Shown: in pieces, positions 1 to 7,371 of the stretch | How the letters are laid out: the number at the start of each line of letters is the position of its first letter | Position numbering within the stretch: the first letter of the stretch is position 1 | Notes under the pieces: model-generated | Database searches by the model: none | What the model was told of the DNA's origin: nothing | What the model saw: the letters and a program-made list of their open reading frames with translations, nothing else | Source of the DNA: Candidatus Vogelbacteria bacterium | GTDB taxonomy: Bacteria > Patescibacteriota > Minisyncoccia > Phycocordibacterales > XYD1-FULL-46-19 | Length of the DNA stretch: 64,000 nt | Assembly: GCA_903878275.1 (NCBI GenBank) | Contig: CAIRHC010000006.1 | Coordinates: forward strand, 15,633-79,632 | Direction: 5' to 3' | Made by a program: the position numbers and the translations under genes

Positions 1-13
1 GCGTGGAGTTAAC

Positions 14-625
14 TTGATGCTCCTCCAACGTCGTTATGTCATCGAAAAAATTCTTCCAGCCCTTAAGGAAGGGCGAGATTTTCATGTGATTAAAGGAAAG
101 AAAGTCTTAAGCAAAGCGGGCGGAGAATTGGTAACGCAAATTTTCTCTCTCACCTCAAAGTTCGAAAAAGATAGTGAGACGTTATCTTCATTCACCAACG
201 CCAAAGATATTATTGCTTTCAAGTGTATGCTTTTCCGTCCAGACGGCAGTCTCGCAGGAGAAGGTCGCGGGAGCGCTTCGTTATCAACCAACGGCAACGA
301 TCCCAACAAAACAATTAAGATGGCTGAAAAATCTTCATTTTTGTCGGCTGTAATACGTAGTACAAATATGAGCGCTTGGTTTACGATGGATTTGGACGAA
401 TCGCCAGAGTTCCGTGAGCAGGTGGTGCAGACGGTTAAAGAAGTTGAACCAGTTAGAACAGATGGTCCCTTGATGGCAACTGACCGCCAGCTCTCATATT
501 TGAGAGAGTTGATCCATTCCAATCTCTCCGATGAGGACCAGCGCGAAAACGCCTTAAACTCTCTTGAGACCGTCTCTCGATATGAAGCCAGTGAGATGAT
601 CTCGTCTTTTGTTGGGGCAAGATAG
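14..625 (+). CDS. hypothetical protein (mobile-element cargo; may be 5'-truncated by window edge)
   Basis: Long ORF in frame from the window start with no recognisable motifs. It lies in a higher-GC block together with the replicase and recombinase genes. Confidence 0.4.
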   Translation: MMLLQRRYVIEKILPALKEGRDFHVIKGKKVLSKAGGELVTQIFSLTSKFEKDSETLSSFTNAKDIIAFKCMLFRPDGSLAGEGRGSASLSTNGNDPNKTIKMAEKSSFLSAVIRSTNMSAWFTMDLDESPEFREQVVQTVKEVEPVRTDGPLMATDRQLSYLRELIHSNLSDEDQRENALNSLETVSRYEASEMISSFVGAR

Positions 626-872
626 GTCAAAGAACAACTTTTCGTCGTTATCGAGTGCGTTGGAATAGAGATGCTAATTTATAGCTGGGACATATTCTAA
701 GATATCACGGCTGGTTAGCCTAAGAGTATGCGAGAATAGCCACTGCCAAATCTTTGGCCATACTCCAACGTGCTTAATAGCGACGAAGATTAAAATAGCA
801 CTACCCTTAATTTGGGTGGTGCTATTTTTTTGGTCCTTTAATTTAGGACCGAGAAGTTATACTATTAAGCCT

Positions 873-1664
873 ATGACAAGGATGAGATTGCTTCACACTA
901 AAATTAACACCGTTACTGACGCCAAGACAGCTTATCGAAAATTCTTTTTACGAGAACTTCTAACCTTTTTTATAGAGAAAAGAAGCCAAGTCTTGGCTGA
1001 TGATGATTTTTCTTTTTCCACTGGTGAATTTAAGAATTATCTCAAGGTTATCAATAAGACCGCTTATTTTATAAACGAAGTGACCGACGAAAATATAAAA
1101 GACGTTTTGGCCGTTTGTAAAAAATCGTCAGTTAGAGATCATCTCCTCCACATTCCCGTTCCGCCACTACCCCTACTCGACTACACTCCAAAAAGAAACC
1201 ACATTTTTGAAATTAAAAACTGTTTTACCGAATACCTAGTTAATTTTCTTCGTTTTCTTGATACCTCCTTAAATCTTGGTGATTGGAAAGATGGAGCTTC
1301 TCGCAATTGTTCAAAATTTAATAAAAGTTGCTTTGACCAGACGCAAGACCATAAGCTAATCTTTTTGAATAAAACAACCGAAACATCTCTAAGCAAGAAA
1401 AAGGAGAGCCCCGTTTTTAATCACCTAAAACGAAATTTTAAGGTGTTTTGTCCTTGGGAAGAAATCTATGAGACGATAATCGGAGAAGCCGGAATGATGA
1501 GGGGTTCAATTGAGTCAGAAGACAAAGGCAAAGCGGGCAAACCAGGCTATGTTAGTGATGCCGTAGATAAGCTAAGAGAGAAGCTTTGCCACCTTAGCGG
1601 GTATCCTGAAGTGATAGAAACATCTAAAAAAGGAGGCGAAACCAGCTTTAGGCTCACATATTGA
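873..1664 (+). CDS. hypothetical protein (mobile-element cargo)
   Basis: ORF 816-1664; the internal ATG at 873 (MTRMRLL...) is the more plausible start. No conserved motif recognised. Confidence 0.4.
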   Translation: MTRMRLLHTKINTVTDAKTAYRKFFLRELLTFFIEKRSQVLADDDFSFSTGEFKNYLKVINKTAYFINEVTDENIKDVLAVCKKSSVRDHLLHIPVPPLPLLDYTPKRNHIFEIKNCFTEYLVNFLRFLDTSLNLGDWKDGASRNCSKFNKSCFDQTQDHKLIFLNKTTETSLSKKKESPVFNHLKRNFKVFCPWEEIYETIIGEAGMMRGSIESEDKGKAGKPGYVSDAVDKLREKLCHLSGYPEVIETSKKGGETSFRLTY

Positions 1665-5573: not shown

Positions 5574-5800
5574 CGCTTCAGATGAAGCTCTTTCACGATG
5601 TCTCCTCAACTGCTTGAAAAAGAAAAGAAGTGAGCAGTCGAGGAGGTTTCAGAGGAAGAGATAAAGTTATCAACGAAATGAGAGAGTTGCAGAATAGACA
5701 ACTATGGACAGGGAAGAATATAATAATCAATTAGGCTCTAATCAAAGGTCCAAAGACGAGGCACTCGAGTACCTCGCCGATATTCTCGTGAAAGCTTATC

Positions 5801-7360
5801 TTGAGCAAAAAAATAGACATGAATCAACCAATCACACAAACTAATAAACGAGCAATTTTGTATTGTCGCGTTTCTACCACTGAGCAAGCAGATGAGGGAA
5901 ATTCTCTGGTGACACAACAGAAAGCTTGTCGCGAATATGCGAACAAAAACGATTTTGTCGTACCTGAAGATGGAGTTTTTATTGAACATGGTGAAAGTGC
6001 CAAGACTGTCGACCGGACACAACTTCAAAAGATGCTGGGTTACTGTGCTCAAAAGAAAAATGGGGTCTCGGCCGTAATTGTTTACAAGATTGATCGCCTC
6101 TCACGCAATACAGACGACTACAGTCAGCTCCGCCTACTGTTAAAGCGTTACGGGGTAGCTATTAGGTCCACTACTGAAAACATCGAGGACACTCCAGTTG
6201 GACGATTTATGGAAAATACGATGGCTAATATCGCCCAGTTTGATAATGATATTCGCGCGGAGAGATGTTCTGGTGGAATGCGTGAAGCTGTCCGCGAGGG
6301 GCGCTATGTTTGGGGAGCTTCTATTGGCTATGCAAATGTGCGTGTTGCTGATAAGGCGACCATTGCCCAAAATGAAATGGCCCCGCTTGTTAGACGTTCA
6401 TTTGAAATAGTCGCGACCGCCACTTATCCCACGGACGAAGTTTGGAGAATGATGTGCCAAGAAGGACTGCGAAAAAAGAACGGCAAACCTGTCTCCAGAA
6501 ACTATTTTTATGAAATGCTTTGTAATGAAATTTATATGGGCTGGATGGAGAAGTTCGGAGAACGCCACAAGGGAGCATTCGAGCCAATAGTAAGCGAGGA
6601 TCTGTTTGCGCAGGTGAAGCGAGTGCTTAAAAATAAGGGGCACAAAGTAGCGCAGTACAAAACAGACAACCCCGAGTTTCCTCTCCGGCGCTTTGTACTG
6701 AACCCTGAGGGTTTAAAACTCACCGGTAGCTTTTCTAAAGGCAAATACCCTTCCTATCGTTTCAATGGGGCGAGTGGTAATTACGACCGCGATGGACTAG
6801 AAAAAAGTTTTGCCGTTCTGATGGACTCTTACCGATTCGATGTTTCCGACATTGCCAAACTTAAACGTCTGGTTCGCGAAAAATTCCACGATGCTACCGA
6901 GGATGAGCGAAAAGAAGCTCGCATGATGGAGGCCCGCCTCAAAGAGTTGGCCGAAGAACAGTCTGCGCTCGTGCGAAAAAATCTGAAAGGTATCTTAAGT
7001 GATTCTGTTCTCCAACGAGAACTGGCACGCATTGAAAAAGCAGAGATAGAAATACGATCTACTCTTGCCATACAGACTAGCGATGTCGGATCTCCAGAGG
7101 AGGCAGTTGCCTTTGCATCAGAGTATCTGAAGCAACCTAGTGCTATCTGGAAAAAGGCAGGTATTACAACGAGAACTAAGCTTCAATGGTTCCAATTTCC
7201 CTCCGGTATTGTCTTTGATGGACAAATATTTGGTACTCCCGAAATAGCTAGTGTTTTCAAGGCGAAAGAGCTAATTTTGTCTCCTTTGTCGGTTGGGGTG
7301 GACCTGAGCGGGCTCGAACCGCTTACCTCCACATTGCAAATGTGGCGTTCTACCAGGTGA
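5801..7360 (+). CDS. large serine recombinase (resolvase/invertase N-domain + recombinase domain + coiled-coil)
   Basis: N-terminal AILYCRVSTTEQ (catalytic Ser), VYKIDRLSRN, then a long recombinase/zinc-ribbon-like region. The 3' 60 nt overlap antisense tRNA-Ala. Confidence 0.85.
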   Translation: MSKKIDMNQPITQTNKRAILYCRVSTTEQADEGNSLVTQQKACREYANKNDFVVPEDGVFIEHGESAKTVDRTQLQKMLGYCAQKKNGVSAVIVYKIDRLSRNTDDYSQLRLLLKRYGVAIRSTTENIEDTPVGRFMENTMANIAQFDNDIRAERCSGGMREAVREGRYVWGASIGYANVRVADKATIAQNEMAPLVRRSFEIVATATYPTDEVWRMMCQEGLRKKNGKPVSRNYFYEMLCNEIYMGWMEKFGERHKGAFEPIVSEDLFAQVKRVLKNKGHKVAQYKTDNPEFPLRRFVLNPEGLKLTGSFSKGKYPSYRFNGASGNYDRDGLEKSFAVLMDSYRFDVSDIAKLKRLVREKFHDATEDERKEARMMEARLKELAEEQSALVRKNLKGILSDSVLQRELARIEKAEIEIRSTLAIQTSDVGSPEEAVAFASEYLKQPSAIWKKAGITTRTKLQWFQFPSGIVFDGQIFGTPEIASVFKAKELILSPLSVGVDLSGLEPLTSTLQMWRSTR

Positions 7361-7371
7361 ACTACAGGCCC
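7297..7371 (-). tRNA. tRNA-Ala (anticodon TGC)
   Basis: The reverse complement folds as a canonical cloverleaf: acceptor GGGCCTG/CAGGTCC with the G3:U70 Ala identity pair, anticodon stem CCACA/TGTGG, loop TTTGCAA, T-arm AGCGG-TTCGAGC-CCGCT, discriminator A. CCA is not encoded. Confidence 0.85.

What the first reader, a model, noticed from the sequence alone, without database searches (positions are those of the whole stretch)
1..7371. Integrated replicative mobile element next to tRNA-Ala(TGC) carrying a PrimPol-SF3 helicase, a minimal PolX and a large serine recombinase
A 7-kb block in one orientation encodes a self-contained replication and recombination toolkit: PrimPol-PriCT-D5_N helicase, a 174-aa family-X polymerase and a large serine recombinase, plus 5-6 orphan ORFs. 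It ends exactly at the 3' end of a minus-strand tRNA-Ala, the classic integration geometry. Sampled lines here look more GC-rich (about 48-50%) than typical flanking host DNA. The left end is outside the window, so element size and cargo are unknown. Combining a PolX with a PrimPol in a small integrative element of a CPR-like host is unusual.
Basis: partly seen in the sequence, partly recalled or inferred. Interest (0 to 1): 0.7.

Follow-up and report, generated by a model that had tools for sequence, protein, structure and literature searches.

The report
Serine-recombinase mobile element at tRNA-Ala
This is a small mobile DNA element inserted at the very end of an alanine tRNA gene; it carries its own replication genes, including a miniature DNA polymerase, and its inserting enzyme recognises the tRNA gene in a way not found described in the papers searched.

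Summary
Window 1-7297 is a one-strand block that differs in composition from the rest (GC 44.0% vs 39.0%; tetranucleotide z 7.5). It encodes a 174-aa palm+thumb PolX, a PrimPol-PriCT-SF3-type helicase and a large serine recombinase (LSR), and it abuts an antisense tRNA-Ala(TGC).

It is an integrated element, but not of the classic tRNA direct-repeat type. Comparison with about 60 related loci shows that this LSR clade recombines inside GTGG (window 7298-7301), at the last bases of tRNA-Ala. The tRNA T-loop motif lies 16 nt from the core in all 25 tRNA arms. A look-alike T.GAAC lies 21 nt from the core in all 15 element arms. This matches the 5-bp attB/attP offset that I recall (not checked here) for serine integrases.

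attP lies inside the recombinase gene. Integration replaces a conserved C-terminal helix (FWNxFAxE..L..IL) with a tail read from antisense tRNA; 95 of the 120 best homologues carry such a tail. Complete relatives are 5.9-8.4 kb. The window's attL lies off its left end.

The mini-PolX is the conserved gene of a PolX-Rep-LSR module in CPR genomes. It also occurs in Bacteroidota genomes and in IMG/VR viral contigs. A 2026 survey of bacterial polymerases does not list it.

The parts
1..625 (+). ORF1: C-terminal 207 aa of a protein whose start lies left of the window. Function unknown, but conserved in the element family.
   Evidence: There is no in-frame stop before position 14. phrog_10048 matches at 1e-8, covering profile positions 42-187 of 273, so about 26 or more N-terminal residues are missing. 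Homologues occur in L009, L011, L018 and L020 next to PolX modules. No PDB or Pfam match.
873..1664 (+). ORF2 (263-282 aa; start uncertain at 816, 873 or 882), function unknown.
   Evidence: ORF listed. No Pfam or PHROG hit. One homologue, L021:7861-8652, lies upstream of a PolX.
1904..2062 (+). Small conserved ORF (52 aa), possibly a regulator or directionality factor (inference only).
   Evidence: Family F3 occurs in 8 CPR loci, either just upstream of PolX or just upstream of the recombinase.
2078..2278 (+). Small ORF (66 aa), seen only in copies of this same element.
   Evidence: The same gene is called on the short ENA contigs that match the window at 99.9-100%.
2367..2891 (+). Minimal family-X DNA polymerase: 174 aa, palm and thumb only. 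It has no 8-kDa, fingers or PHP domains. The predicted catalytic residues are D48, E50 and D100, with the GS..RR triphosphate motif at 37-41.
   Evidence: Pfam thumb and palm hits. phmmer aligns residues 6-170 to T. thermophilus PolX residues 154-312 at 1.5e-10, placing GDVEI on GDLDF and LDL on VDL. AF2 model pLDDT 94.6. Foldseek top hits are T. thermophilus PolX at TMq 0.73-0.75, followed by Pol beta, lambda and mu. The family profile is colinear with ASFV PolX 1jaj (27-172 vs 28-173, E 0.012). G37, S38, D48 and E50 are invariant and D100 is at least 90% conserved in 38 sequences.
2937..3170 (+). p77: small conserved ORF directly downstream of PolX, function unknown.
   Evidence: Family F4 occurs in 6 CPR loci at the same position. 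Weaker relatives lie upstream of tRNA-Ala recombinases in elements that lack PolX. No Pfam or PHROG hit.
3285..5573 (+). Replication protein: AEP Prim-Pol domain (about residues 10-165), PriCT_1 (184-246), a middle domain and an SF3-type P-loop helicase (Walker A GPQGSAKST at 444-452; Walker B FLFFDN at about 487-492).
   Evidence: Pfam. PHROG DNA primase and polymerase/primase families. Weak sequence hit to pRN1 ORF904. AF2 model pLDDT 85.5. Foldseek matches ASFV PrimPol C962R at E 4e-13 and the NrS-1 C-terminal region at 8e-9. D74, H102, G444, G447, K450, D491 and N492 are invariant. No Pfam or NCBIfam model hits the C-terminal half.
5695..5724 (+). Promoter-like site upstream of the recombinase gene.
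   Evidence: TAGACA-18-TATAAT, 11 of 12 matches, the best in 1-7700. This is a consensus match only.
5801..7360 (+). Large serine recombinase (519 aa from TTG 5801; 513 aa from ATG 5819). The conserved body ends at about 7294. Codons from 7295 on are read from antisense tRNA-Ala (VDLSGLEPLTSTLQMWRSTR*).
   Evidence: Pfam, PHROG and NCBIfam hits. The nucleophile motif is YCRVSTTEQ (S25). Homology to the 57-82% identical relatives L026, L169 and L225 ends 2-3 codons before the tRNA. 95 of the 120 best homologues end in an equivalent tRNA-antisense tail.
7263..7325 (.). attR (P-O-B'). The P arm is the recombinase 3' coding DNA up to 7297. The core is GTGGAC at 7298-7303, with the crossover inferred inside GTGG and most likely GG at 7300-7301. 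The B' arm is the tRNA acceptor 3' strand plus the T arm, with TCGAAC starting 16 nt from the core.
   Evidence: DNA identity to L169 stops at 7290 and resumes only at GTGGACC. The junctions of about 25 loci align the same way. Offsets are 16 in tRNA arms versus 21 in element arms. attL and attR of the same element differ at positions -3 to -1, and L173-type attP differs from attB from position +4 on, which confines the crossover to GTGG. A symmetry peak lies between the two G's.
7299..7371 (-). tRNA-Ala(TGC), the host gene whose 3' end is the attachment site. It is intact, has the G3:U70 pair and does not encode CCA.
   Evidence: ARAGORN 7296-7372. Rfam RF00005, 63.9 bits. Sequence read directly.

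Best explanation
Window 1-7297 is the right-hand 7.3 kb of a small integrative element, probably 7.5-9 kb in all, sitting in the chromosome of a Patescibacteria (CPR)-type bacterium.

Shown by comparison:
- Its large serine recombinase belongs to a clade whose chromosomal target (attB) is the extreme 3' end of tRNA-Ala genes.
- Strand exchange falls within GTGG. These bases are the complement of the first trailer base, discriminator A73 and C72-C71 of the tRNA. The tRNA gene stays intact and no long repeat is made.
- On the tRNA side, the T-loop sequence TCGAAC lies 16 nt from the core.
- The element's own site (attP) carries a look-alike T.GAAC 21 nt from the core. I recall (not checked here) that serine integrases use this 5-bp offset to tell attP from attB.
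- attP lies inside the 3' end of the recombinase gene. In the free, circular state the ORF continues 24-52 codons across attP. In most relatives those codons encode a conserved amphipathic helix, FWNxFAxE..L..IL.
- After integration the helix coding DNA ends up at the far end of the element (attL). The recombinase then ends in about 20 residues read from antisense tRNA.

Inferred:
- After excision the circle replicates as a plasmid. The PrimPol-SF3 helicase opens and primes the origin, and the 174-aa PolX does short gap filling or primer extension, as ASFV PolX does in repair.
- The swap of the C-terminus, and convergent tRNA transcription into the gene, may damp or redirect recombinase activity in the integrated state.
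For: Foreign composition:
- GC is 44.0% against 39.0%, above all 99 host windows; tetranucleotide z is 7.5.

Recurrent module:
- In named CPR genomes (Paceibacterota, Minisyncoccia, Moranbacteria, Nomurabacteria, Zambryskibacteria, Saccharibacteria) the order PolX, small ORF, Rep, LSR recurs. Rep is a PrimPol-helicase or an AAA_25 helicase.
- The LSR 3' end overlaps an antisense tRNA: Ala, Glu, Asp, Asn, Tyr or Leu.
- PolX stays 63-73% identical across these loci, while one compared recombinase (L005) is only 24% identical.

tRNA-Ala specificity of this LSR clade:
- About 33 metagenome loci have tRNA-Ala starting 3-30 nt after the last homologous codon.

att sites:
- T-loop motif offsets are 16 in 25 of 25 tRNA arms and 21 in 15 of 15 element arms.
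- attL sites (host hairpin and T-run, then GTGGACT and the P' arm) lie 5.9-8.4 kb upstream of the tRNA in L176, L177, L178, L179, L191 and L194.
- In L225, whose recombinase is the closest retrieved relative (82%), attL at 108 and the tRNA at 6881 bound a 6.8-kb element.
- attP-type sites without a tRNA occur in L173, L184, L189, L201, L215 and L221. L184 also carries a TrwB/TraG-like coupling protein.

Protein-level selection on the P' peptide:
- Third codon positions are the most variable (entropy 1.07, 0.80, 1.46 for positions 1-3).
- Conserved F, A, E, L and I residues carry synonymous changes.
- In L184 and L215 the peptide motif sits about 17 residues away from the DNA motif, so the two are conserved separately.

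Other support:
- Of the 120 best homologues, 95 have tRNA-antisense tails and 17 have attP-type tails.
- Folds of PolX and PrimPol-helicase.
- The same element is seen at 99.9-100% identity in four other ENA contigs.
Against: - The window's own attL and the left part of the element were not seen. The source contig could not be retrieved, so the size and completeness of this copy are extrapolated from relatives.
- No empty tRNA-Ala site and no circular junction was observed for this element.
- No recombination, replication or polymerase activity has been tested.
- The recombinase has no zinc-ribbon Pfam hit and no cysteine after residue 241. Applying the zinc-domain spacing rule to it is by analogy.
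- P and P' arms show only weak dyad symmetry: 0.33 at the proposed centre against a background of about 0.25, and a slightly higher peak (0.37) lies at a centre that the att comparison excludes.
- Some 'attP-type' sites belong to tandem arrays rather than free circles (L186/L222).
- The role of PolX is inferred only from its family and from gene order.
Confidence: 0.8

Rival explanations
1. The block is the replication and integration end of a full-size prophage, whose structural genes lie left of the window.
For: The left boundary is unseen. ORF1 matches a phage protein family, phrog_10048. The mini-PolX occurs on 216 IMG/VR contigs, many of 35-45 kb. There it sits among methylases, an exonuclease, ASCH proteins and tyrosine integrases.
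Against: Relatives with both att sites are only 5.9-8.4 kb. No capsid, portal or terminase gene was met among the roughly 30 neighbouring proteins of related CPR loci that were annotated. This recombinase has no relative in IMG/VR. The PolX-bearing CPR loci carry defence or metal-handling cargo instead.
Confidence: 0.1
2. It is a phage satellite of the PICI or P4 kind: a small island with an integrase and a primase-helicase that excises and is packaged by a helper phage.
For: It has the same size class and the same core of integrase, primase-helicase and small regulators. Identical copies appear in several samples.
Against: No packaging, capsid-remodelling or helper-interference genes are recognisable. 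No helper is known. An attP-form relative carries a TrwB/TraG-like conjugative coupling protein instead. None of this excludes a satellite lifestyle for this particular element.
Confidence: 0.1
3. It is a decayed, immobile remnant: a fixed genomic island that no longer excises or replicates.
For: Recombinase C-terminal relics next to tRNA-Ala are common among relatives: L206/L207, L216-L219, L223/L224. Most database copies are in the integrated state. In the integrated state the recombinase lacks its native C-terminal helix.
Against: All three large ORFs are full length with intact catalytic motifs. Composition is still clearly foreign. Copies from other samples are 99.9-100% identical, which suggests recent spread or strain-level variation.
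Confidence: 0.15
4. The gene block is ordinary host DNA. The mini-PolX and PrimPol serve chromosomal repair or replication, and the neighbouring tRNA is coincidental.
For: The PolX family is highly conserved in CPR genomes (63-75% identity), as a housekeeping gene might be.
Against: The same MAG can hold three copies at different sites (L010, L020 and L025, all in JBAQNN01). The neighbours change from locus to locus. The block always ends at a recombinase abutting a different tRNA. att sites bracket the relatives. Composition differs from the host.
Confidence: 0.02

Closest known systems
Phage-type large serine integrases (phiC31, Bxb1, A118/LI, SPbeta, TP901-1)
   Same: Resolvase and Recombinase domains. 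Short att sites with a crossover inside a 4-6 bp core and no long repeats. A half-site motif lies 5 bp further out in attP than in attB; I recall this rule from the LI integrase-attP structure and did not check it here. Most copies are integrated, consistent with one-way integration.
   Different: The target is the 3' terminus of a tRNA gene, which is the usual territory of tyrosine integrases. attP lies inside the integrase gene, so integration changes the protein's C-terminus. There is no zinc-ribbon Pfam hit and there are no cysteines in the expected region. I found no description of such an arrangement for a serine integrase in four literature searches. That is absence from the searchable library only.
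Myxococcus phage Mx8 intP/attP and Sulfolobus SSV1 integrase (tyrosine family). Recalled from memory, not checked here.
   Same: attP lies within the integrase coding sequence. Integration into a tRNA gene alters (Mx8) or splits (SSV1) the integrase gene.
   Different: Those are tyrosine recombinases with long tRNA-identical cores. Here the enzyme is a serine recombinase with a 4-6 bp core, and only the last 24-52 codons are exchanged.
African swine fever virus PolX (O174L, 174 aa; PDB 1jaj and 5hr9 series)
   Same: Same length and same palm-plus-C-terminal-subdomain-only architecture. The alignment is colinear (27-172 vs 28-173). The acidic triad sits at nearly the same positions (D48/E50/D100 here; D49/D51/D100 in ASFV from memory).
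   Different: Sequence similarity is marginal (E 0.012). The family is closer to bacterial PolX cores (T. thermophilus 1.5e-10, 27% identity). The second acidic residue is invariably Glu. It is encoded by bacterial mobile elements and phages rather than a eukaryotic virus.
Bacterial PolX1 and PolX2 groups (NAR 2026 survey, PMC12926913)
   Same: Homologous polymerase core, with the active site conserved as in PolX2.
   Different: PolX1 has the 8-kDa, polymerase and PHP domains. [quoted passage not shown] This family has neither addition. It comprises at least 252 clusters at 50% identity with E<=1e-30, and the best 150 are nearly all 155-205 aa. The survey does not mention it.
PrimPol-helicase replication proteins: pRN1 ORF904, phage NrS-1 polymerase, ASFV C962R, poxvirus D5
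   Same: N-terminal AEP Prim-Pol domain, PriCT and a C-terminal SF3-type P-loop helicase. The best fold matches are ASFV PrimPol and the NrS-1 C-terminal region. Like pRN-type plasmids, it sits on a small element that can integrate at a tRNA gene.
   Different: No Pfam D5_N or D5_C or other helicase model is hit. The host is a CPR-type bacterium. The helicase half also occurs fused to a different N-terminal domain, PF22763.
Phage-inducible chromosomal islands, P4-like satellites and actinomycete integrative elements (AICEs)
   Same: A small island with an integrase, its own replication initiator and short regulators, integrated at a tRNA gene.
   Different: The integrase is a serine, not a tyrosine, recombinase. 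No packaging or transfer genes are recognised in the window. A PolX gene is present.

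Membership tests
Large serine recombinase (serine integrase) | N-terminal resolvase-type catalytic domain with a nucleophilic serine | tested here: met
   PF00239 at 2.8e-33 over residues 18-169. Motif YCRVSTTEQ with S25. PDB hits to resolvase and TP901-1 catalytic domains.
Large serine recombinase (serine integrase) | Recombinase domain (PF07508) following the catalytic domain | tested here: met
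   PF07508 at 4.8e-10 over residues 192-278. phrog_95 integrase at 2.6e-67 over residues 4-457.
Large serine recombinase (serine integrase) | Zinc-ribbon domain with four cysteines carrying a coiled-coil insert | tested here: not met
   No PF13408 hit. There is no cysteine after residue 241. A heptad-like charged stretch at about 360-430 is visible by eye only. Other recombinases of the same element family do hit Zn_ribbon_recom weakly.
Large serine recombinase (serine integrase) | Short att sites with the crossover in a few-bp core and no long direct repeats | tested here: met
   The shared core is GTGGAC, or only GTGG for L173-type attP. The window holds no repeat of the tRNA segment. Related complete loci have none of 14 nt or more.
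Large serine recombinase (serine integrase) | Distal half-site motif 5 bp further from the centre in attP than in attB | tested here: met
   TCGAAC lies at offset 16 in 25 of 25 tRNA (B') arms. T.GAAC lies at offset 21 in 15 of 15 P' arms. The search pattern allowed motif offsets of about 19-25, yet only 21 was found. The 5-bp rule itself is recalled from memory, not checked here.
Large serine recombinase (serine integrase) | Catalyses attP x attB recombination | not testable with these tools
   Needs an in vitro or in vivo assay.
Family X DNA polymerase | Pol-beta-type palm with the GS..RR motif and three acidic residues | tested here: met
   G37, S38, R40, R41, D48 and E50 are invariant and D100 is at least 90% conserved. 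They align to GDLDF and VDL of T. thermophilus PolX. The second acidic residue is Glu, not Asp.
Family X DNA polymerase | Thumb (C-terminal) subdomain of the PolX core | tested here: met
   PF14791 at 2.4e-7. Foldseek TMq is 0.73-0.75 to T. thermophilus PolX, with probability 1.0.
Family X DNA polymerase | 8-kDa and fingers DNA-binding domains, and the PHP domain of typical bacterial PolX1 | tested here: not met
   The protein is 174 aa and aligns only to residues 154-312 of the 575-aa T. thermophilus enzyme. The best 150 family representatives are nearly all 155-205 aa.
ASFV-type minimal PolX | Specific relationship to ASFV O174L beyond shared architecture | tested here: inconclusive
   The profile hit to 1jaj is colinear but has E 0.012. 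Bacterial PolX scores far better. No phylogeny was made.
AEP PrimPol fused to an SF3 helicase (pRN1 ORF904 / NrS-1 / ASFV C962R / D5 type) | Prim-Pol catalytic domain and PriCT | tested here: met
   PF09250 at 5.3e-33 and PF08708 at 1.9e-6. D74 and H102 are invariant.
AEP PrimPol fused to an SF3 helicase (pRN1 ORF904 / NrS-1 / ASFV C962R / D5 type) | D5_N and SF3 helicase domains recognised by sequence models | tested here: not met
   Only sub-threshold generic P-loop hits were found (ABC_tran 0.039, RuvB_N 0.16). No NCBIfam hit.
AEP PrimPol fused to an SF3 helicase (pRN1 ORF904 / NrS-1 / ASFV C962R / D5 type) | SF3-type helicase fold with Walker A and B motifs | tested here: met
   The AF2 model (pLDDT 85.5) gives top Foldseek hits to full-length ASFV PrimPol (E 4e-13) and to the NrS-1 C-terminal region (E 8e-9). 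G444, G447, K450, D491 and N492 are invariant. Whole-chain TM scores are low (0.3-0.36), consistent with different relative domain orientations.
Integrated mobile element (genomic island) | Bounded by attL and attR | tested here: inconclusive
   attR was identified by comparison at 7263-7325. attL is not in the window. Both sites are seen in relatives, including the closest one, L225.
Integrated mobile element (genomic island) | Composition differs from the host and presence is variable | tested here: met
   GC and tetranucleotide differences. The module sits at different tRNAs in different genomes and three times in one MAG. No empty site was found for this genome.
Classic tRNA-integrating island (tyrosine-integrase type) | Tyrosine integrase and a direct repeat of the tRNA 3' segment (about 15-50 nt) at the far end | tested here: not met
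   The integrase is a serine recombinase. The repeats are limited to a 4-6 nt core.
Prophage | Virion and packaging genes inside the element | tested here: not met
   None was found in the window or among the neighbouring genes of related CPR loci that were annotated. The recombinase is absent from IMG/VR. The unseen left part keeps this open for the window's copy.
Phage satellite (PICI / P4-like) | Helper-dependent packaging functions | not testable with these tools
   No recognisable packaging or interference genes. No helper is known.

The most novel reading that the evidence does not exclude
Splitting the recombinase gene at attP acts as a built-in state switch. Only the excised circle makes the full-length enzyme with the FWNxFAxE..L..IL helix, which is competent for integration. 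The integrated copy makes a tRNA-tailed variant that is also opposed by convergent tRNA transcription, and this biases or silences the reverse reaction. In parallel, the 174-aa PolX and the PrimPol-SF3 helicase would form a minimal element-encoded DNA synthesis pair, which would explain why PolX is the most conserved gene of these CPR elements.
Probability: 0.25. Interest if true: 0.8.

Novelty: new variant of a known kind. Interest (0 to 1): 0.62.

Why it matters
1. It extends serine integrases into tRNA-gene targeting. It also gives a natural series of dozens of attP/attB pairs in which the recognised motif can be read directly: the tRNA T-loop, and a copy of it shifted by 5 bp. That makes the half-site spacing rule testable on a new, apparently zinc-less branch. 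It also offers many orthogonal integrases whose attB can be predicted from the neighbouring tRNA.

2. The integrase gene is rewritten by its own reaction. This is a simple, testable route to directionality or copy-number control in serine recombinases.

3. It points to a very large family of stand-alone 155-205-aa PolX enzymes, at least 252 clusters at 50% identity. They occur on CPR integrative elements and on IMG/VR viral contigs, and in Bacteroidota genomes. A recent bacterial polymerase survey does not list them. They match in architecture the smallest known DNA polymerase, ASFV PolX.

4. It documents small replicative and defence-carrying islands in CPR bacteria. I found no paper describing such elements in the searchable library.

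5. Practical note: in the top 120 hits, 95 annotated recombinase proteins carry a spurious 'conserved' C-terminus that is antisense tRNA-Ala.

Tried and rejected
Retrieving the upstream sequence failed.
- Exact-protein look-ups for ORF2 (two start codons), PrimPol, the recombinase (two start codons, and P0121) and YchF found nothing on record.
- The PolX look-up returned only short contigs, not the 150-kb source contig.
- The source genome is not among the GTDB representatives.

Searches that gave nothing useful:
- A search for a repeat of the tRNA 3' segment in the window and in complete related loci found none of 14 nt or more upstream. This is now explained by the serine-recombinase mechanism.
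- The short copies of the tRNA 5' part to the right of the tRNA in L020, L024 and L025 suggested that the element might carry a whole replacement tRNA. I rejected this after the att-site comparison. The copies remain unexplained.
- Terminal-repeat tests for circularity of attP-form contigs were negative.
- The apparent attL in L186 turned out to be the junction of a tandem array.
- The same motif search for the Glu, Asp, Asn, Tyr and Leu clades gave no attL candidates within the loci held.
- Pfam, NCBIfam, PHROG and PDB searches of ORF1, ORF2 and the small ORFs gave no function.
- BLAST clustering of PolX neighbours outside CPR showed no dominant partner.
- The P arm shows no clear mirror image of the T.GAAC motif.
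- Host taxonomy could not be read from the contig itself.
- Four literature searches for a serine integrase at tRNA genes or in CPR returned nothing relevant.

Full report
**1. What is in the window**

Positions 1-7360 carry nine ORFs, all on the + strand.
- Pfam assigns 2367-2891 to the PolX thumb and palm.
- Pfam assigns 3285-5573 to Prim-Pol plus PriCT_1.
- Pfam assigns 5801-7360 to Resolvase plus Recombinase. PHROGs calls this protein an integrase at 2.6e-67.

A minus-strand tRNA-Ala(TGC) lies at 7296-7372 by ARAGORN and 7299-7371 by Rfam. The recombinase ORF runs into it, and its stop codon at 7358-7360 is tRNA DNA. ORF1 has no in-frame stop before the window start, and its PHROG match begins at profile position 42. 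The element therefore continues to the left.

GC is 44.0% for 1-7295 against 39.0% for the rest. No 7.3-kb host window exceeds 41.8%, and the tetranucleotide distance is 7.5 sd above host windows. To the right lie housekeeping genes: YchF, LeuRS, AlaRS, DnaK and ValRS.

**2. The small polymerase**

The 174-aa protein aligns to residues 154-312, the palm and thumb, of Thermus thermophilus PolX at 1.5e-10. GDVEI falls on GDLDF and LDL on VDL. An AlphaFold model (pLDDT 94.6) matches T. thermophilus PolX at TMq 0.73-0.75, followed by Pol beta, lambda and mu. In 38 homologues G37, S38, R40, R41, D48 and E50 are invariant and D100 is nearly so. The active site is therefore under selection, with Glu in the second acidic position.

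A family profile aligns end to end with the 174-aa ASFV PolX (27-172 vs 28-173), but only at E 0.012. The two share an architecture, and the sequence is closer to bacterial PolX.

The family is large:
- 1,341 clusters at 90% identity.
- 252 clusters at 50% identity with E<=1e-30; the best 150 are almost all 155-205 aa.
- 259 loci in GTDB representative genomes.
- 216 in IMG/VR.
- Only one weak hit in deposited phage genomes and no PHROG family.

A 2026 survey of bacterial polymerases lists only PolX1 (8 kDa + polymerase + PHP) and PolX2 (polymerase + extra helical domain). A phage-polymerase review names only ASFV for family X in viruses.

**3. The replication protein**

Sequence models see only the N-terminal Prim-Pol and PriCT domains. 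The AlphaFold model (pLDDT 85.5) has full-length ASFV PrimPol (C962R) as its best Foldseek matches at E 4e-13, followed by the helicase-containing C-terminal region of phage NrS-1 polymerase. Walker A and B residues are invariant.

**4. A recurrent module**

In CPR genomes named by their depositors, the PolX gene sits in a fixed order on one strand:
- a variable 270-350-aa protein;
- small ORFs;
- PolX;
- a small ORF of the 77-aa family;
- a large replication protein, which is this PrimPol-helicase, an AAA_25 helicase or another;
- a small ORF;
- a large serine recombinase.

PolX stays 63-73% identical across these loci, whereas the recombinase compared (L005) is only 24% identical. One Minisyncoccia MAG has three copies (L010, L020, L025).

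In nine cases the recombinase ORF overlaps an antisense tRNA by 10-150 nt. The tRNAs are Ala, Glu, Asp, Asn, Tyr or Leu.

Cargo upstream of the module includes a C5 methylase with DUF6339, an SMC/AAA_21-like ATPase and metal-handling genes. No virion genes were seen.

Outside CPR, the PolX lies in phage-like replication regions with Dam and N6/N4 methylases, an Rv2179c-like exonuclease, ASCH proteins, helicases and tyrosine integrases.

**5. Where the element ends**

- The recombinase 78% identical to this one (P0124) abuts tRNA-Ala(CGC). The two DNAs are about 88% identical up to window 7290. They are unrelated for the next 7 nt. They then share only GTGGACC before the two different tRNA bodies diverge.
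- A scan of metagenome contigs returned 53 loci. Wherever the 3' end is complete, an antisense tRNA-Ala usually starts 3-30 nt after the last homologous codon. This holds in about 33 loci, mostly TGC but also CGC and GGC, and one subclade uses tRNA-Tyr.
- Six to eight loci have no tRNA there. They keep GTGGAC(T/C), or GTGGTG, and then continue into unrelated DNA. These are attP-type sites.

**6. The att sites**

In all 25 distinct tRNA arms the T-loop sequence TCGAAC (or TCGGAC) starts 16 nt from the G of GTGGAC. In all 15 distinct element arms a look-alike T.GAAC starts at 21 nt. The search pattern would have accepted motif offsets of about 19-25. As I recall it (not checked here), a 5-bp outward shift of the distal motif is how large serine integrases distinguish attP from attB in the LI integrase-attP structure.

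The same pattern finds attL sites upstream of integrated relatives. A host hairpin and T-run lie on the left, and GTGGACT with the P' arm on the right.
- The attL sites lie 5.9-8.4 kb from the tRNA in L176, L177, L178, L179, L191 and L194.
- They lie 2.5-3.4 kb away in decayed copies that retain only a recombinase C-terminal fragment (L207, L216, L217).
- The closest retrieved relative of the window's recombinase (P0122, 82%) has attL at L225:108 and tRNA-Ala(TGC) at 6881. This bounds a 6.8-kb element with different cargo.

The crossover can be narrowed. attL and attR of the same element differ at the three bases left of the core. L173-type attP differs from attB from the fifth base of the core onward. 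The crossover must therefore lie in GTGG (window 7298-7301). GT-GG-AC is symmetric around GG, and a symmetry scan has a local peak there. The central GG is an inference.

The window contains no P'-type site, so its attL lies to the left of position 1.

**7. The recombinase gene spans attP**

Read in the recombinase frame, the P' arm encodes 24-52 further residues. Most carry the motif FWNxFAxE...L..IL. Three observations indicate selection on the peptide and not only on a DNA site:
- Third codon positions vary most (entropy 1.07, 0.80, 1.46).
- The conserved F, A, E, L and I residues carry synonymous changes.
- In L184 and L215 the peptide motif is displaced about 17 residues from the DNA motif.

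A minority of attP sites stop after six codons (..VVFV*).

After integration the ORF instead reads antisense tRNA. Of the 120 best database homologues, 95 end in a VDPTGLEPATPSLQMRCSTR-like tail, 17 have attP-type ends and 8 are unclassified. The window's protein ends VDLSGLEPLTSTLQMWRSTR.

From memory, Mx8 intP/attP and the SSV1 integrase are tyrosine-family precedents for an integrase gene altered by integration. I found no serine-family example in the searchable literature.

**8. How it probably works**

Shown:
- Integration by a large serine recombinase at the 3' terminus of tRNA-Ala, leaving the tRNA intact.
- The element family is modular and small.
- The recombinase C-terminus depends on the integration state.

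Inferred:
- Excision restores the full-length gene.
- The circle replicates through the PrimPol-helicase.
- PolX fills short gaps or extends primers.
- The C-terminal swap, and convergent tRNA transcription, modulate recombinase activity.

An attP-form relative carries a TrwB/TraG-like coupling protein. Integrated relatives carry Shedu, KAP-NTPase and AbiEii-like genes. The recombinase therefore serves several kinds of small island. The window's copy is the replication-module variant.

The recombinase has no relatives in IMG/VR, which argues against a phage. A promoter-like site (11 of 12 matches) precedes the recombinase gene.

**9. Limits**

- The window's own left end, an empty site and a circular junction were not seen.
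- The source contig could not be fetched.
- Host taxonomy rests on the names of homologues' genomes.
- All activities are untested.
- The zinc-ribbon domain expected in this recombinase class is not detectable.

**10. Verdict**

The finding is real and its interpretation is essentially right. The element is a new variant of known kinds in two respects. First, it has a tRNA-end-targeting serine integrase whose gene spans attP. Second, it carries a widespread stand-alone mini-PolX that I did not find described in the papers searched.

Noticed in passing
window 12044-12130: ARAGORN's second tRNA-Ala(GGC) (12055-12130) was not called by Rfam. It is only a tRNA 3' half (anticodon stem-loop, T arm and acceptor 3' strand), preceded by a GC-rich hairpin. 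It lies 56 nt after the intact tRNA-Ala(GGC) at 11957-12028. It looks like the scar of an older integration of the direct-repeat type. Its T arm is 29/32 identical to that of the occupied tRNA-Ala(TGC).
   Followed up: partly
window 11957-12030: The intact tRNA-Ala(GGC) ends in GGTCCAC (GTGGACC on the other strand), with its T-loop at the same 16-nt offset as the occupied site. It is therefore a potential unoccupied secondary attB in the same genome.
   Followed up: partly
L020:14299-14320; L024:14951-14967; L025:14787-14840: Short copies of the 5' part of the occupied tRNA (Asp, Asn, Glu) lie 74-311 nt to the host side of the intact tRNA. The serine-recombinase model does not explain them.
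   Followed up: partly
L206/L207, L216, L217, L218, L219, L223/L224: Only the last 36-240 codons of a recombinase remain next to tRNA-Ala, with an attL 2.5-3.4 kb upstream in L207, L216 and L217. These are decayed elements left in place.
   Followed up: partly
L186:1-2826 = L222:7323-10148: This is a tandem array at one tRNA-Ala. A recombinase relic of element A is joined through a P-O-P' site to element B, which ends at the tRNA. It suggests that a resident element's attR can be re-used as a target.
   Followed up: partly
L184:2429-3751; L221:2132-3247; L179:1234-3855; L177:790-3861; L020:3492-8398: Relatives of the recombinase carry varied cargo. L184 (attP form) has a TrwB/TraG-like coupling protein. 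L221 has Shedu SduA. L179 has an AAA_13/AbiEii-like ATPase. L177 has a KAP NTPase. L020 has a C5 methylase with DUF6339. So tRNA-Ala sites in CPR genomes act as small defence and mobility islands.
   Followed up: partly
P0121-P0240 (recombinase homologues): About 80% of the 120 best database homologues of this recombinase carry a seemingly conserved C-terminal motif (VDPTGLEPATPSLQMRCSTR-like). It is in fact the antisense translation of tRNA-Ala. This is a trap for annotation and for alignments.
   Followed up: yes
P0333-P0359: The helicase two-thirds of the PrimPol protein also occurs fused to a different N-terminal domain (PF22763) at 53-57% identity. The primase module is therefore exchangeable.
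   Followed up: no
L079, L083, L087, L088: Distant PolX relatives (28-36% identity) in archaeal MAGs and in some bacteria lie in much longer ORFs (about 480-570 aa). These are presumably canonical PolX and mark the outer edge of the mini-PolX family.
   Followed up: no
window 7550-11173: Directly right of the tRNA is a 1207-aa Ser/Thr-rich secreted-type protein with many repeated Ig-like segments. It was not analysed.
   Followed up: no
window 15018-18305: The LeuRS is 1095 aa and matches the 843-position bacterial model in four separate stretches, which indicates large insertions.
   Followed up: no
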